Assembly (NCBI GenBank): GCA_037440825.1
Contig: JBBITJ010000016.1
Span: 1-10,405, forward strand
Length of the DNA stretch: 10,405 nucleotides
Direction of reading: 5' to 3'
Source: Candidatus Micrarchaeota archaeon
Lineage (GTDB): Archaea; Micrarchaeota; Micrarchaeia; Anstonellales; Bilamarchaeaceae
Shown in pieces: positions 6,001-10,405 of the stretch. Position 1 is the stretch's first letter. Every line of letters starts with the position of its first letter. Made by a program: the position numbers.

Positions 6001-9000
6001 TTCAAAACCCCTGAAAAGCCCGTGTTCAGGCTTCCGAAGGGGCTGAGCGAGAATACTGTAAAGGAAATCTCGGCTGAGAAGGGCGAGCCAGACTGGATGC
6101 TCAAGAAAAGGCTGGATGCATACAATCTATTCGTCCGCCTCCCCATGCCCGCCTACGGCCCGGATCTCTCGCATCTGGACTTCAACGAGATAACATATTA
6201 CATAAAACCCAGCCAGCAGAAGGCGCGGAAATGGGAGGATGTTCCGAAGGAGATAAAGGACACGTTCGAAAAACTCGGAGTACCTGAATCCGAACGCAAG
6301 TTTCTCGCCGGAGTGGAAGCGATGTTCGAGAGCGAGGCGGTCTACCATGGCTTGCGCAAGGAATGGGCTGAGAAAGGCATCATTTTCACGGACACAGATA
6401 CCGCTGTGCGCGAATACCCGGAAATTGTAAAGAAGCATTTCGGAACCGTGGTTTCCCCTGCTGACAACAAGTTCTCGGCCCTGAACACCGCAGTGTGGAG
6501 CGGAGGCAGCTTCCTCATCATTCCTAAAAACGTGAAATTGGAAATCCCTGTGCAGGCGTATTTCCGCATAAATGCAAAAGCGTTCGGGCAATTCGAAAGG
6601 ACGATGATCGTATTGGAAGAAGGCAGCAAAGTCCATTATACAGAGGGTTGCACCGCGCCTATCTATTCAGAAGCTTCCCTGCACGCAGCAGTGGTGGAAT
6701 GCATCGCGAAGAAGGATTCGCACCTTCGCTACACCACCATACAGAACTGGAGCACGAACATCTACAACCTCGTCACGAAAAGGGCGTTCGCTTACGAAAA
6801 TGCGCTCGTGGAATGGGTGGACGGCAACATAGGTTCAGGGATAAACATGAAATATCCCGCAGTCTATCTCAAAGGCAGGAACTCCCGTGCTGAATTCCTC
6901 TCCATCGCCTATGCAGGCAAGGGGCAATACCAGGACGCAGGCGCTCGCGCGATCCACGAGGCGCCTGACACCACATCAGTGATAAACAGCAAGAACATCG
7001 CCAAGAACGGCGGCATTACCGCATTCCGGGGCACGGTGCGTTTTTCCCCTGAAGCGAAAGGCGCCAAGAGCAGCGTGAAGTGCGACGCCCTTCTCCTAGA
7101 TTCCATTTCGAAGAACATCACCCATCCCGCCTTGCAGACTTCCCAGCCGCACGCCACGCTCACGCATGAGGCAAGAGTAGGAAAAATAAGCGAGGAACAA
7201 GTCTTTTATCTCATGAGCAGGGGGCTTTCCGAGGATGAAGCCACATCCCTTATAGTGCTCGGATTCATAGAGCAGTTCATGAAGGAGCTTCCGCTGGAAT
7301 ACGCAGTAGAATTCAACAGGCTCGTGCAGCTCGAAGTGGAAAAGAAGCTGGGATAATGATGAAAATTTACAATTCGAAATGGAGCGCCGCAGAAACGGAC
7401 GGCAATTCGGTCAGGGTTCCTACAGGCAAATCCGCCTCTGTTCTAGTCGTGCATCAGGCAGGAAAGAATTCGCTCTCCTATGAATTGGGCGCAGGCTCCA
7501 CCCTGATTCTATTCAATTTCTATGGAAAAGGGTGCGAAGTCCGCAGCAGCTTCTCGCTTTCCGAGAACAGCAGGCTGGAAATCCGCGACCTCTTTACAGG
7601 GGGCGCTAAAGCCGACATCTCGATTCCAATGGAGAAAAAAGGGTGCATGTTGGATCTGCTCGCGAAAGGGATAATAGAGGACAAACAGTTCTCATCCTAT
7701 TCCGCGCTCGCGTCCGTAGGGAAGCACGCATCAGGCGCGAACGTCAATTTGGAGGAGCATGCTTATCTATTGGGCGAAGGCGCGCGCGCCACTCTCGTTC
7801 CCGGTTTGGAGATCATCAATAACGACGTGAGCGCAAGGCATGCGTCCAGCATGCGCGAGCTGGACGAGGAACAGCTCTTCTATCTGATGAGCAGGGGGCT
7901 TTCCAGGGAAGAGGCGAAAAATGAAATCCTTTCAGGCTTCGTGATGCATGAAAAGGAGAGGGTAAAGGAGCTGTTCGGCTACAGCGTGGAACTATGAAAG
8001 TTCTTGTGTTCGGAAACCCTCTGGTTCCAGAAGACTCCCTTGCGCTCAAAGTCGCGGAAAAACTTAAAGGAAATTTCGAATTCAAAATCCTAGAAGCAGT
8101 GGAAGATATAGAAAATGAGGGCAGGAACCCGGTAATCCTGGACGTTGCGGAAGGCATCAAAAAACCCGTCCTCATCTCGGATTTGGAAAAGCTCCATACG
8201 AACCCTATCTACTCCATGCACGATTTCGACATCTCGCTCGCGCTCAAATTGCTAAAGAAGATAGGAAAAATCGATTCGGTGCGCATAGTAGCCATTCCAA
8301 TCGGCTATCCCATGGAAAAAGCGACAAAAGAATCCGAAAAGCTCCTCAATTCCCTCTAGCTACCTCCACTTTACTTTCAAAAAGTTGGTAGCGCAGCTCA
8401 TGCAGGGATCGTACGCCCTTATGAGCATCTCCATGCCCCTCTTTATCTCGTCCTTATTCGCCCCTGCATCCAGCTTCTCCTGCACCACCTGCCCCAGATC
8501 CCTCTCCATTTTCACTTGGTTTTGCGCCGTAGGTATGACCAGATTGGCGTATTCTATCTGCCCTCCGCTGTTCGTTATTATCTTATGGTAAAGCAGCCCC
8601 CTCGGAGCTTCAACAACCCCTATTCCGACGCCCTTCCGTATCTGCGCCTTCTGCACAGGCTCCTGTTTGAATTCCATCGTTTCGAGCATCTCTATCGAAA
8701 CATCTATTCCGTGCACAATTTCTATTGCCTGCGCCACGTTATTGTCGAACATGTTGAGCGACGGAAAACGCCCCAGGTATTTCTTCACGTCTTTCTTCGT
8801 TTCCCTGTGGAGCGCCCTCTTGTTGTAATTCATCCTAGCCAGCGCGCCAACTATGTAAGGCTTGTCCTTGTAGGTGAATCCCCTAGCTTGCGAATAAGGT
8901 ATGACCACCTTTTCCAGGTAATGGTCGAACGCGCTTTTGAGTATGCATCCCTGCCCGTCCCCGCATATTTCCCCCTGCACGTAATCGTAATCGTCATTGG

Positions 9001-10405
9001 TGAGCGCAACGAAATAGGTGTCGGATTTGAGCTTGAAATCCGCATTAGCGAATATCTCTATGAATTCCAGCGCGGCTTCCCTCACCTTCTTCAGCTCGGC
9101 TATGCTCTTCTTCACGTCCTCGTTCGTGGGCACCCTGAGGAATCCGCCCACCAATGGAAGAGGGGAGTGGATTGCCCTCCCTCCTATCATGGTCGCGAGC
9201 CTGTTCCCCGCGCCCTTCACTTCGAACGCCTTGTGGAGCAGCTCATGCTGGCTTTCGTCGAATTCCAAAACCGAGTCCTTGTTGAAATAATCCGGAAGGC
9301 AGAATAGATAGAGGTGCATTGCATGGTCCCTTATGTACGTGCCGTGCATGAGCAGCTTCCTCATATCCACGGTCTGCTCGCTCGGAACCAGCTCGAACGC
9401 GTTCTCCACGGCTTCTATTGACGCGAGCATGTGCGCCACGCTGCACGTTCCGCAAATCCTCGAAAGAGTTTGAGGCGCAGCGAGCGCATGCTTCCCTATT
9501 ATTGCCTCACTGAAGAACCTCTTGTTCTCGCTTATCACCAGCTTGGCGTCCTTCACCTTGCCTTTTTGCACCTTCACTTCGAGCTCGGCATGGCCCTCTA
9601 TCTTGCTCAGGTCCTCCACGCCTATGGAGAAATCAGCGTCAACTTCATGCATAGGTGTTCCCAGTCTTCGGTTTCCCGTCTTGCCTCATCATTCTACTCC
9701 GAATTCCTTCAAGTACTTGTCCATTATCGCCAGAAATGTTTTTTCGTCCATGGGGCAGCCGGGCACCTCCATGTCCACATTGACGAATTTCTTCACAGGC
9801 TCCACTTTGTCATTCAGCCCGTGCAATTTGAGGAACGGCTGTATCTTCTCCATCTGCTCCTCGCTGAACGTGTTACGCTGCGCCGAAGGCAATCCAGTGA
9901 CGGCGCACGCTCCGACCGCTACGAGCTTTTTGGAATTGGCGCGTATCTTCTCCAGCTTTTCAACCTCCTTCTTCCCGCTTATCGCGCCTTCCACGAACGC
10001 CACGTCCAGGTCCTTCAGCTCGTTTTTGGACCTGAGCATCTTCGCGTGCACGAAATCCAGCTTCCTTATCCATTCCGCGTGGCGCTCGTTCATCAGCTCT
10101 AGGAACACGATTGTATTGTCCTCTGAACAAGTAAATGTAAACCAGCCTACGCGGAGTTTTTTCTGCATGCCTGCGCTTCTCAGATAACTATTTTAAGCAC
10201 TTCTGGTCGAGTAAGCGCTTGCCATGAAAGACGCGCACATAGCGGGCGTAATGAAGAGCCATTGCTGCAAGGCAGTTTTCATCCTCGCCTTCTTCGGAGC
10301 TTATTTCCTCGTCCCTGAGAAGGTCTTCTACGACGGCTACGCAATCCTCGGATTTGCGTTCATGCTGTCCTTTGCGGCAGTGTTCACCTGCCTGATAAGG
10401 AACCT

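What a model noticed while it worked through the whole genome (the two positions that open the first line are those of the whole stretch)
7994..10405. [NiFe] hydrogenase clustered with HydG and a HypC-HydE fusion; no HypDEF, HydA or HydF
A two-subunit [NiFe] hydrogenase (430 + 159 aa) and a short protease lie beside HydG and a fusion of the [NiFe] chaperone HypC to a HydE-like radical SAM enzyme. The genome lacks HypA/B/D/E/F, HydA and HydF. The fusion is a widespread family that I could not find described, and it is syntenic with [NiFe], not [FeFe], hydrogenase genes. I propose that HydG/HydE-type chemistry builds the Fe(CO)(CN)2 unit of this [NiFe] enzyme.
Evidence so far: - HydG scores 573.7 bits (cut-off 312). 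HydE scores 219 (cut-off 254.6). The HypC domain scores 40.1 (Pfam cut-off 28.5). The motifs are read in call 46. - G000 is 95.6% complete. It has no HydA, HydF, HypD, HypF, HypE, HypA or HypB above cut-off. - In 61 genomes of the order: the large subunit is in 20 and HydA in 28, with no overlap. HypD is in 0 of 61 and HypF above cut-off in 0 of 61. HydG is in 13 (8 with the large subunit, 3 with HydA, 2 with neither). HydF is found only in the 3 HydA genomes, and in the two of them whose loci were read HydE is unfused. - All 120 listed database relatives have PF01455 plus PF04055. - In 80 loci from many phyla: HydG 47, large subunit 26-30, HycI 21, Hy The finding spans contig positions 7994 to 13235; this window holds only 7994 to 10405 of it. 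[...]
(Added by a program. Inside this text positions count along the whole contig: contig position 1 is position 1 of the stretch shown here. "Call 12" and the like, gene names such as g00115 and contig names such as C1 are that model's own, and its searches are not shown. The text may have been shortened before it was handed on; [...] marks where a part breaks off. The agent that wrote the report below was given it as the finding of a first reader that could run no searches.)

Follow-up and report, generated by a model that had tools for sequence, protein, structure and literature searches.

The report
[NiFe] hydrogenase with HydG/HypC-HydE maturases
A tiny archaeon carries a stripped-down nickel-iron hydrogenase but none of the usual genes that build its iron-CO-cyanide centre; beside it sit two enzymes known only from iron-iron hydrogenase assembly, one of them fused to the nickel-iron enzyme's iron chaperone, which points to an undescribed way of making this cofactor.

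Summary
The window (a Micrarchaeota contig) encodes a 430-aa group-3b-like [NiFe] large subunit, a truncated 159-aa small subunit and a weakly HycI-like 121-aa protein. Past a 100-N scaffold gap lie a HypC-HydE-like fusion and a canonical HydG. The genome (95.6% complete) has no HypA/B/D/E/F, HydA or HydF above cut-off.

New here, in 251 Micrarchaeota genomes:
- The large subunit is in 81 and HydA in 52, with no overlap. HypD is in 2.
- HydG is in 17 of 81 large-subunit genomes, 2 of 52 HydA genomes and 0 of 118 others.
- In 80 metagenome loci of the fusion, a large-subunit motif occurs in 27, and HydA and HypD motifs in 0.
- The [NiFe]-linked HydE, fused or not, carries a Cys-Val-His motif that canonical HydE lacks. 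The fused HypC keeps Cys2 but has Gln in place of the conserved His.

Against the reading:
- Most HypDEF-less hydrogenase genomes have no HydG. They carry DUF6390 or another extended HypC-like protein, so lack of HypDEF alone does not implicate HydG.
- The chemistry is untested.

The link to [NiFe] maturation is strongly supported (mechanism about 0.5). The scan found this fusion before on other DNA. One preprint mentions it in passing.

The parts
7994..8359 (+). 121-aa putative minimal HycI/HybD-like maturation endopeptidase. Its start overlaps the stop of the SufD-like gene (7356-7997) by 4 bases.
   Evidence: TIGR00072 gives 20.6 bits (E 3.5e-4), below the cut-off of 47.45. No Pfam hit. No PDB relative. 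Conserved in L014 and L015 at 64-77% identity. The ORF in the same position in G193 gets PF01750 at 18 bits. Clear HycI genes hold this place in metagenome loci L107 and L058. Candidate metal ligands (E13/D14, D50, H76) were read by eye. The HybD ligand set is recalled, not tested.
8360..9652 (-). [NiFe] hydrogenase large subunit, 430 aa, group-3b-related.
   Evidence: PF00374 107.6 bits. ShyA 249.4 and HydA(SHI) 234.6 bits, below the equivalog cut-offs. 217.5 bits to 9nez_D over residues 10-425. R65, C67, C70, H74, D415, P416, C417 and C420 are invariant in 43 relatives. Position 423 is Asn here and in three close relatives (P0128, P0131, P0133), and His in at least 90% of the family.
9689..10168 (-). 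Truncated small subunit, 159 aa. It holds the proximal-cluster domain only.
   Evidence: PF01058 72.7 bits. The alignment with full-length 3b small subunits shows loss of about 95 C-terminal residues, which carry the medial and distal cluster cysteines. It also shows loss of the second Cys of the N-terminal CxxC (TCSEDN against CCEGC). C88 and C138 are invariant.
10224..10405 (+). First 60 codons of a small Cys-containing hydrophobic protein of about 155 aa, cut by the scaffold gap (10406-10505). Function unknown. Two further parts of the system lie beyond the window end and cannot be listed as parts: the HypC-HydE-like fusion at contig 10627-11865 (+, 412 aa) and HydG at contig 11862-13235 (+, 457 aa).
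   Evidence: **Membrane protein.** Homologues of 153 and 159 aa lie beside the small subunit in L014 and L015 (48-58% identity; alignment). No Pfam family.

**Fusion.** PF01455 40.1 bits and PF04055 73.1 bits. TIGR03956 219.2 bits. 208.7 bits to T. maritima HydE 7o1o. HypC 2z1c at E 4.7e-7. In 52 family members, M1-C2-Y3-A4-I5-P6 is invariant or nearly so, and Q43, C136, V137, H138, C147, C151 and C154 are invariant.

**HydG.** TIGR03955 573.7 bits against 312.15. 551.7 bits end to end to 4wcx. CVNDCLYC and CTAC-x22-C read.

Best explanation
**The genes.** The window encodes a minimal cytoplasmic [NiFe] hydrogenase. It has a group-3b-like large subunit, a small subunit reduced to its proximal-cluster domain, and a probable short C-terminal endopeptidase. 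No beta or gamma subunit was found in the genome. Next on the contig are HydG and a HypC-HydE-like fusion.

**The proposal.** HydG and the fusion form a HypD/E/F-independent module that supplies the iron-carbonyl-cyanide unit of the large subunit.

**Proposed steps**
1. HydG cleaves tyrosine and builds an Fe-CO/CN species on its C-terminal cluster. This is established chemistry for HydG. This HydG keeps all the motifs and is over 550 bits to a solved HydG.
2. The HydE-like domain uses SAM-radical chemistry to strip the cysteine from the HydG product, as canonical HydE does. Instead of pairing two irons, it keeps a mononuclear Fe(CO)x(CN)y. This domain belongs to a distinct subfamily marked by an invariant Cys-Val-His just before the radical-SAM cluster motif. 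This step is inferred.
3. The covalently attached HypC domain takes the iron unit on its N-terminal Cys2 and docks on the large subunit. Cys136 and His138 of the HydE-like domain may stand in for the missing HypD Cys and HypC His. This step is inferred.
4. Nickel enters without HypA/B, and the short protease trims the 7-residue tail. This step is inferred.
For: **Fusion and operon structure**
- A [NiFe]-specific chaperone domain is fused to a HydE-type enzyme, and the fusion is translationally coupled to HydG.
- The family is large and conserved. All 120 of 120 listed relatives have both domains. There are 515 relatives in metagenome contigs.

**Synteny**
- Three gap-free Micrarchaeota contigs keep hydrogenase, fusion and HydG together despite unrelated inserted genes.
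- Of 80 metagenome loci, 27 have the large-subunit DPCxxC motif (19 of 19 control loci hit). None has the HydA MPCxxK motif (2 of 2 controls hit). None has the HypD GPGCPVC motif (2 of 2 controls hit).
- L107, L065 and L058 are 3b-type operons with HycI and the fusion.

**Phyletic pattern in 251 Micrarchaeota genomes**
- HydG is in 17 of 81 large-subunit genomes, 2 of 52 HydA genomes and 0 of 118 others. The 17 span 5 families and 11 genera.
- HydF was found in 1 of 20 genomes tested.
- HypD is in 2 of 251. HypE and HypF are each in 2 of 80. These hits also show that the searches can find the genes in this phylum.
- Four genomes with a large subunit and HydG have an unfused HydE and no HypC or HydA.

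**Subfamily signature**
- [NiFe]-linked HydE, fused or unfused, has C-V-H. The HydE of the HydA/HydF genome G068 has H-A-R, and T. maritima HydE has H-I-R.

**Own genome**
- No Hyp, HydA or HydF at 95.6% completeness.

**Literature**
- A preprint lists the fusion in a [NiFe] operon of a 1.52-Mb Legionellales symbiont together with HybD, HypA and HypB. 'HypD' and 'HydG' each occur 0 times in its main text (passages read).
Against: - There is no biochemistry.
- Of 81 large-subunit genomes in the phylum sample, 62 have neither HydG nor HypD. By my own tabulation of the lists have DUF6390, 17 have only stand-alone or extended HypC-like proteins, and 12 have none of these.
- A HypDEF-free route therefore exists that needs no HydG. 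HydG/HydE could be an accessory to it.
- The known HydG product has 2 CO and 1 CN (recalled), not 1 CO and 2 CN. This HydG shows no subfamily-specific change against an [FeFe]-linked HydG in six sequences.
- This protein's HydE score is below the NCBIfam cut-off, and its HypC domain lacks the conserved His.
- In the four genomes with unfused HydE, the HydE-HydG pair is not next to the hydrogenase.
- In 2 of the 17 genomes (G133, G246), only the N-terminal part of the large-subunit model matched.
- The contig is a scaffold, with a gap between the hydrogenase and the fusion.
- Related genomes are not independent observations.
- Whether bacterial carriers have HypDEF elsewhere in their genomes remains untested.
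Confidence: 0.5

Rival explanations
1. HydG and the HypC-HydE-like protein supply only part of the cofactor. The most likely part is the CO ligand, whose anaerobic source is unknown. Alternatively they assist an unknown core pathway that all HypDEF-less Micrarchaeota share and that acts through HypC-fold proteins.
For: - 62 of 81 large-subunit genomes lack both HydG and HypD yet keep the four Ni-Fe cysteines.
- DUF6390 and an extended HypC-like protein sit in the same place beside the large subunit.
- One genome (G243) has both DUF6390 and the fusion with HydG.
Against: - No candidate core enzyme was found in the example clusters. The neighbours there are an EamA transporter, a thioredoxin-like membrane protein and a flavoprotein.
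- DUF6390 and HydG coincide in only 1 of 50 genomes that have either. That pattern looks like alternatives, not partners.
Confidence: 0.22
2. The large subunit of these lineages carries a non-canonical iron site, for example Fe(CO)2(CN) or another HydG-derived unit. The module would then build a new cofactor variant, not the textbook Fe(CO)(CN)2.
For: - HydG looks fully canonical.
- The enzyme is atypical. It has a truncated small subunit with only three Cys for the proximal cluster, no beta or gamma subunits, Asn in place of the near-invariant C-terminal His, and an invariant short tail.
Against: - All four Ni-Fe cysteines and the surrounding motifs are invariant, and the subunit aligns end to end with a solved 3b enzyme.
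- The same large-subunit family occurs with DUF6390 modules, and in two genomes of the phylum large subunits occur with canonical HypCDEF.
Confidence: 0.1
3. The radical-SAM pair is unrelated to this hydrogenase. It would be a leftover or laterally acquired [FeFe] maturation pair, or would serve another metallocofactor, and its place beside the hydrogenase would be inherited gene order.
For: - HydG is about 60% identical to a Firmicute HydG, which fits recent transfer.
- In four genomes the HydE-HydG pair lies among housekeeping genes.
Against: - The HypC fusion exists at all.
- No HydA or HydF was found in 17 of 19 HydG genomes.
- Synteny with [NiFe] operons recurs across phyla.
Confidence: 0.05
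4. HypCDEF exist but were missed, because of assembly gaps or divergence.
For: - The genome is a 45-contig bin with N gaps.
Against: - HypD was not found in 249 of 251 genomes, including the single-contig genomes G041, G193 and G238.
- HypD, HypE and HypF were found at 387-794 bits in the two genomes that have them.
Confidence: 0.03

Closest known systems
HydG/HydE/HydF maturation of the [FeFe]-hydrogenase H-cluster (T. italicus HydG 4wcx; T. maritima HydE 7o1o/3cix)
   Same: HydG is a full member: 573.7 bits, both cluster motifs, 551.7 bits to 4wcx. The HydE-like domain aligns over residues 30-345 of T. maritima HydE at 208.7 bits and has the CX3CX2C motif.
   Different: No HydF and no HydA in the genome. 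The HydE-like domain scores below the HydE cut-off. It has C-V-H where canonical HydE has H-I/A-R. It lacks the C-terminal Cys triad seen in the [FeFe]-linked HydE of G068. It is fused to HypC.
HypC/HybG/HupF chaperones of the HypCDEF pathway (T. kodakarensis HypC 2z1c, 3vyr)
   Same: PF01455 is above cut-off over the whole domain. The N-terminal Met-Cys is kept, and the domain has the same length.
   Different: It is not a stand-alone protein and has no HypD partner. The conserved His (GDYVLVH) is Gln in 52 of 52 family members. TIGR00074 gives 32.6 bits, below the cut-off of 48.
Group 3b [NiFe] sulfhydrogenase (P. furiosus SHI, 9nez; T. kodakarensis 5yxy) and the 'hyd2' 3b-related clade of CPR bacteria (Jaffe et al. 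2020, PMC7304191; passages read)
   Same: The large subunit aligns end to end with SHI alpha. As in hyd2, the small subunit is truncated (159 aa here; mean 164 aa in that paper). As in hyd2, a hypC-like gene lies nearby.
   Different: No beta or gamma subunits were found in the genome. That paper does not discuss maturation ('maturation', HydG and HydE each occur 0 times). Membership in hyd2 itself was not tested with a tree.
'HydE-HypC fusion' noted in Ca. Centrionella anaeramoebae (bioRxiv 10.64898/2026.04.11.717937; passages read)
   Same: The same two-domain architecture, in a [NiFe] operon with a maturation protease.
   Different: It is only named there as unusual and counted as part of a 'full maturation machinery'. 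No mechanism, no HydG link and no survey are given. I did not compare the sequences.

Membership tests
HydG (TIGR03955) | Score above the curated cut-off over the full length | tested here: met
   573.7 bits against 312.15, model positions 10-470. 551.7 bits to 4wcx over residues 4-457.
HydG (TIGR03955) | Radical-SAM CX3CX2C plus C-terminal CX2CX22C cluster motif (motif definitions recalled) | tested here: met
   CVNDCLYC and CTAC-(22)-C read. Both are conserved in six HydGs.
HydG (TIGR03955) | Works with HydF and HydA | tested here: not met
   The best HydF match is 34.1 bits and the best HydA match 12.5 bits in the own genome.
HydE (TIGR03956) | Score above the curated cut-off | tested here: not met
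   219.2 bits against 254.6. Among the 13 fused copies in the phylum sample, 7 pass and 6 do not.
HydE (TIGR03956) | Radical-SAM CX3CX2C and overall fold-length similarity to solved HydE | tested here: met
   CGMNCLYC. 208.7 bits to 7o1o, residues 105-408 against 30-345.
HydE (TIGR03956) | Canonical residues before the IIEFSN segment, and the C-terminal Cys triad | tested here: not met
   C-V-H instead of H-I/A-R. No CX7CX2C. The triad is not essential in T. maritima HydE (recalled).
HypC/HupF (PF01455) | Pfam gathering score | tested here: met
   40.1 bits against 28.5, domain positions 1-65 of 65. 43.9 bits in the genome search.
HypC/HupF (PF01455) | Cys directly after the initiator Met | tested here: met
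   MCYAIPG. C2 is present in at least 90% of 52 members.
HypC/HupF (PF01455) | Conserved His of the GDYVLVH segment (His51 in E. coli numbering, recalled) | tested here: not met
   Gln43, invariant in 52 of 52. Canonical HypC of G210 and G227 has His in the same column.
HypC/HupF (PF01455) | Stand-alone protein acting with HypD | tested here: not met
   Fused. No HypD in the genome.
[NiFe] hydrogenase large subunit, group 3b | N-terminal RxCGxCxxxH and C-terminal DPCxxC metal-binding motifs | tested here: met
   The His that usually follows the second motif is Asn here.
[NiFe] hydrogenase large subunit, group 3b | Heterotetramer with FeS (beta) and FAD/NAD (gamma) subunits | tested here: not met
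   No PF17179 or PF10418 match in the genome. Both are present in the fusion-bearing operons L107 and L065; L058, cut at its 5' end, shows only the gamma subunit.
HycI/HybD maturation endopeptidase | Family score above cut-off | tested here: inconclusive
   TIGR00072 20.6 bits against 47.45. No Pfam hit. Position and size fit; clear HycI genes hold this place in L107 and L058.

The most novel reading that the evidence does not exclude
Nearly a whole phylum (Micrarchaeota), and many other small-genome anaerobes, make [NiFe] hydrogenases without HypD/E/F. They would use interchangeable modules built around a HypC-fold domain. In one module, tyrosine-derived CO and CN from HydG are processed by a dedicated HydE subfamily and handed to the large subunit. 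The [NiFe] and [FeFe] maturation lines would then share radical-SAM chemistry. The other modules (DUF6390, extended HypC) would point to yet another unknown source of the diatomic ligands.
Probability: 0.35. Interest if true: 0.9.

Novelty: new variant of a known kind. Interest (0 to 1): 0.78.

Why it matters
- HypCDEF is the only accepted way to build the Fe(CO)(CN)2 unit of [NiFe] hydrogenases. The anaerobic origin of its CO is still open (my own knowledge).
- A HydG/HydE-based route would be a second, tyrosine-derived pathway. It would join two maturation systems that are thought to be unrelated.
- It would give a three-gene maturation set for a two-subunit hydrogenase, which is attractive for heterologous expression.
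- It would explain how DPANN and CPR organisms with 1-Mb genomes afford a hydrogenase.
- The question can be tested directly with existing HydG/HydE assays and isotope-labelled tyrosine.
- The phylum-wide lack of HypDEF, and the DUF6390 alternative, widen the question beyond this locus.

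Tried and rejected
- **Complex prediction** (HypC domain of the fusion against the large subunit, both as alignments) was not available. 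No docking evidence either way.
- **Python box** was lost. I made no trees, no tests corrected for relatedness and no automated annotation of the 80 loci. Motif patterns and hand-picked ORFs were used instead.
I got no handle on any bacterial carrier genome.
- **The genome search** does not hold the metagenome records. The question 'do bacterial carriers have HypDEF elsewhere?' stays open.
- **Supplements of Greening et al. 2024** could not be read; the mirror gave no answer. Its Table S3 lists HydE/F/G hits for all archaeal species and may already list these genes. Its main text has 0 occurrences of HypC.
- **No RNA holder** was listed for the fusion-HydG stretch.
- **HydA motif pattern TSCCP** failed both positive controls and was dropped. 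MPCxxK was used instead.
- **HypF motif pattern** hit 1 of 2 controls, so its 0 of 80 is weak.
- **HydG motif count** of 29 of 80 is a lower bound. The pattern misses variants such as that of G068, and 43 of the 80 loci are shorter than 8 kb.
- **PurM-like genes near unfused HydE-HydG** (G038, G199) were checked as possible HypE stand-ins. They are ordinary AIR-synthase-family proteins among housekeeping genes.
- **The 402-aa neighbour of DUF6390** is a thioredoxin-motif membrane protein with no Pfam hit, not an obvious ligand-forming enzyme.
- **The N-terminal helical domain of DUF6390** gave no clear structural match.
- **Literature searches that found no description of the pathway**: (DUF6390: 0 papers). 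Papers read in passages.

Full report
**What is in the sequence**

The window is positions 1-10405 of an 18,456-base scaffold (C16) of an 875-kb, 45-contig archaeal bin. Three close relatives are labelled Candidatus Micrarchaeota.

From left to right the window holds:
- archaeal ribosomal-protein and RNA-polymerase genes;
- a SUF operon (SufS, SufC, SufB and a SufD-like gene);
- the finding.

The 121-aa ORF at 7994-8359 starts 4 bases before the SufD-like stop, so it is probably translated with sufBD. On the other strand lie the 430-aa large subunit (8360-9652) and the 159-aa small subunit (9689-10168).

A small hydrophobic protein begins at 10224 and runs into a 100-N scaffold gap at 10406-10505. 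This gap is where the window ends.

The fusion (10627-11865) and HydG (11862-13235, a 4-base overlap) follow on the contig. After them come ribosomal-protein genes. HydG and the fusion are therefore outside the window, and they are joined to the hydrogenase only through a scaffold gap.

Three gap-free Micrarchaeota contigs (63-77% identity) carry the same genes on one contig. Unrelated genes are inserted between them: toxin-antitoxin pairs, ABC transporters and a methyltransferase. One of them, L016, gave no match to the 121-aa ORF. The linkage is real. Among such close relatives it could still be inherited order and not selection.

All are reproduced:
- HydG 573.7 bits (cut-off 312.15);
- HydE 219.2 bits (cut-off 254.6);
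- PF01455 40.1 bits (cut-off 28.5).

The genome is 95.62% complete. It has no HypD match. Its best matches are 13.9 bits for HypF, 27.8 for HypE, 12.5 for HydA, 34.1 for HydF, 17.9 for HypA and 17.8 for HypB. All are far below the cut-offs. Its only HypC domain is the one in the fusion.

All 120 of 120 listed database relatives of the fusion have both domains. Source names for them include Micrarchaeota, Nanoarchaeota, Aenigmatarchaeota, Omnitrophica, Patescibacteria and Gammaproteobacteria.

The 'short protease' is the weakest call. TIGR00072 gives 20.6 bits against 47.45. There is no Pfam hit and no solved relative.

**Anatomy of the hydrogenase**

- The large subunit aligns end to end with P. 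furiosus sulfhydrogenase I alpha (217.5 bits).
- It keeps the four metal cysteines, which are invariant in 43 relatives.
- The His that normally follows DPCxxC is Asn here and in three close relatives (P0128, P0131, P0133).
- The 7-residue tail FLKVxW is itself invariant.
- The small subunit lacks about 95 C-terminal residues, which carry the medial and distal clusters. It also lacks the second Cys of the CxxC pair.
- No beta (PF17179) or gamma (PF10418) subunit was found in the genome. The electron partner is unknown.
- A 3b-related clade with truncated small subunits (mean 164 aa) and a hypC-like neighbour was described in CPR bacteria as 'hyd2'. That paper says nothing on maturation (PMC7304191, passages read).

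**Anatomy of the maturases**

HydG is canonical. It scores 551.7 bits to T. italicus HydG over its whole length and has both cluster motifs. It shows no visible difference from the HydG of a HydA/HydF genome.

The fusion family is tightly conserved (52 sequences, mean column identity 59%). MCYAIP is invariant or nearly so, the radical-SAM cysteines are invariant, and the linker is conserved.

Two features separate it from its parent families:
1. The HypC domain has Gln where canonical HypC has His. Gln is found in 52 of 52 members, and His in the two canonical Micrarchaeota HypCs.
2. The HydE-like domain has an invariant Cys-Val-His just before the IIEFSN segment.
   - The same C-V-H is present in the unfused HydE of G038 and G221 (large subunit and HydG present, no HydA).
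   - It is absent from the HydE of G068 (HydA and HydF present) and from T. maritima HydE.
   - The [NiFe]-linked HydE is thus a recognisable subfamily, whether fused or not.

**Phyletic pattern** (251 Micrarchaeota genomes, a sample; relatives are not independent)

| Feature | Count |
|---|---|
| Large subunit | 81 (79 above cut-off) |
| HydA | 52, no overlap with the 81 (my cross-check of the lists) |
| HypD | 2 |
| HypE and HypF above cut-off | the same 2, of 80 large-subunit genomes tested (G154 dropped for the 80-handle limit) |
| HydG above cut-off | 19 |

Of the 19 HydG genomes:
- 17 have the large subunit and no HydA. They span 5 families and 11 genera.
- 2 have HydA and no large subunit.
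- In 2 of the 17 (G133, G246), only the N-terminal part of the large-subunit model matched.

HydF is above cut-off in 1 of 20 genomes, the HydA genome G068. Thirteen genomes have the fusion and four have unfused HydE.

In this phylum, then, HydG goes with [NiFe] and not with [FeFe] hydrogenases. This fits the statement of Greening et al. 2024 that most archaeal HydA genomes lack HydEFG (PMC11216029, passages read).

**Across phyla**

A metagenome scan found 515 relatives of the fusion, and 80 loci were kept. Forty-three of the 80 are shorter than 8 kb. Without the script machine I counted back-translated motifs on these loci.

| Motif | Loci hit (of 80) | Positive controls |
|---|---|---|
| Large-subunit DPCxxC | 27 | 19 of 19 |
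| HydG CTACYR | 29 (lower bound) | – |
| HydA MPCxxK | 0 | 2 of 2 |
| HypD GPGCPVC | 0 | 2 of 2 |
| HypF NCGPR | 0 | 1 of 2 |

My estimate of chance hits for the large-subunit motif is about 1.

Three loci read with Pfam are 3b-type operons: FeS beta (not in L058, which is cut at its 5' end), FAD/NAD gamma, small subunit, large subunit and HycI, followed by the fusion. HydG is present in two of them and HypA in one.

**What complicates the reading**

Of the 81 large-subunit genomes, 62 have neither HydG nor HypD. Beside their large subunits I found two other kinds of gene.

*DUF6390 (PF19927)*
- It is in 34 of 251 genomes. All 34 have the large subunit, and the gene is mostly adjacent to it.
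- It coincides with HydG in one genome only.
- Its C-terminal half is a HypC fold: Z 5.7, rmsd 1.9 Å, 71 of 71 residues aligned to 2z1c.
- That half keeps both the Cys and the His.
- Its helical N-terminal half matched nothing clearly.

*Extended HypC-like proteins*
- Other families carry a 65-aa HypC plus a 167-200-aa protein with a C-terminal HypC-like domain.
- An example is the closed genome G193, where an EamA transporter and a HycI-like ORF complete the cluster.

By my tabulation of the lists, the 81 genomes split as follows:
- 17 with the HydG module;
- 33 with DUF6390 only;
- 17 with HypC-like proteins only;
- 2 with canonical HypCDEF;
- 12 with none of these, four of which have only weak large-subunit matches.

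It also shows that a HypDEF-free hydrogenase does not by itself call for HydG. No CO- or CN-forming enzyme was found in the two example clusters of this kind that I read (L017, L020). Either these modules are alternatives with an unknown ligand source, or an undiscovered core pathway exists and HydG/HydE is an addition to it.

**Mechanism**

I favour a HypDEF-independent module, at about 0.5:
1. HydG makes the Fe-CO/CN species. This is established for the family.
2. The C-V-H HydE subfamily removes the cysteine ligand by radical chemistry but retains a single iron. This is inferred.
3. The tethered HypC domain carries the iron on Cys2 to the large subunit. Cys136 and His138 possibly replace the ligands normally given by HypD and the HypC His. 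This is inferred.

The mismatch between the known HydG product (2 CO, 1 CN; recalled) and the [NiFe] site (1 CO, 2 CN) is unresolved.

Rivals:
- CO-only or accessory role (0.22);
- a non-canonical iron site (0.10);
- unrelated function (0.05);
- missed Hyp genes (0.03).

**Novelty**

- Searches for the fusion and for HydG with [NiFe] maturation found one passing mention. [quoted passage not shown]
- DUF6390 occurs in no paper of the library.
- This scan has noted the fusion before on six other genomes. Those notes were used as leads only.
- The parts are known families. The combination and its implied pathway are not described. I rate it a new variant of a known kind.

**Limits**

- There are no experiments and no expression data.
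- There are no trees or statistics, because scripts were lost.
- There is no genome-level test of bacterial carriers.
- The supplements of Greening 2024 are unread.

Noticed in passing
L020:6431-7219 (-) (G117); 34 of 251 Micrarchaeota genomes: DUF6390 (PF19927) is a hydrogenase-linked protein. All 34 genomes that have it also have the [NiFe] large subunit, and the gene is usually adjacent to it. It overlaps with HydG in one genome only (G243). Its C-terminal half is a HypC fold (Z 5.7 to 2z1c) that keeps the Cys and the His. Its N-terminal helical half has an invariant Cys-Gly and no clear structural match. No paper in the library mentions DUF6390.
   Followed up: partly
L017:7808-11593 (closed genome G193): A third type of cluster: a 65-aa HypC (with Ser in place of the conserved His), a 167-aa protein with a C-terminal HypC-like domain (with Cys and His), an EamA transporter, a HycI-like ORF, and large and small subunits. 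No HypD/E/F or HydG was found in the genome.
   Followed up: partly
L017:8510-9421 and L020:7206-8138: An EamA-family transporter gene sits inside the hydrogenase accessory cluster in both HydG-less cluster types examined. Its substrate is unknown.
   Followed up: no
phylum sample of 251 genomes: [NiFe] large subunit (81 genomes) and [FeFe] HydA (52 genomes) never occur in the same genome. Only 2 of the 52 HydA genomes have HydG.
   Followed up: yes
window 8360-8390 (C-terminus of the large subunit): The near-invariant His after DPCxxC is Asn in this protein and in three close relatives (P0128, P0131, P0133). The 7-residue tail FLKVxW is invariant across 43 relatives. That is unusual for a cleaved extension.
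   Followed up: partly
window 10224-10405 (+), cut by the gap: A conserved Cys-containing hydrophobic protein of about 155 aa lies beside the small subunit in this contig and in L014 and L015. It matches no family.
   Followed up: partly
window 7356-8359: The protease-like gene overlaps the stop of the SufD-like gene by 4 bases. The hydrogenase accessory gene therefore appears to be co-translated with the Fe-S assembly operon sufBD.
   Followed up: no
L014:659-4276: SufB of a related MAG matches in three separated pieces (residues 3-267, 218-289 and 289-461) with about 1 kb between them. This suggests inteins or other insertions.
   Followed up: no
G000 contigs C43, C44, C42: Three contigs differ in G+C (0.353, 0.665 and 0.587) from the rest of the bin (0.51-0.57). 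They are possibly mis-binned or mobile DNA.
   Followed up: no
L033:5543-6601 and L031:5841-6950: The unfused [NiFe]-linked HydE proteins of G038 and G221 end in a conserved Cys-containing extension (VCRGYA..DL.P....AP.CA). The fused forms and G068 HydE lack it.
   Followed up: no
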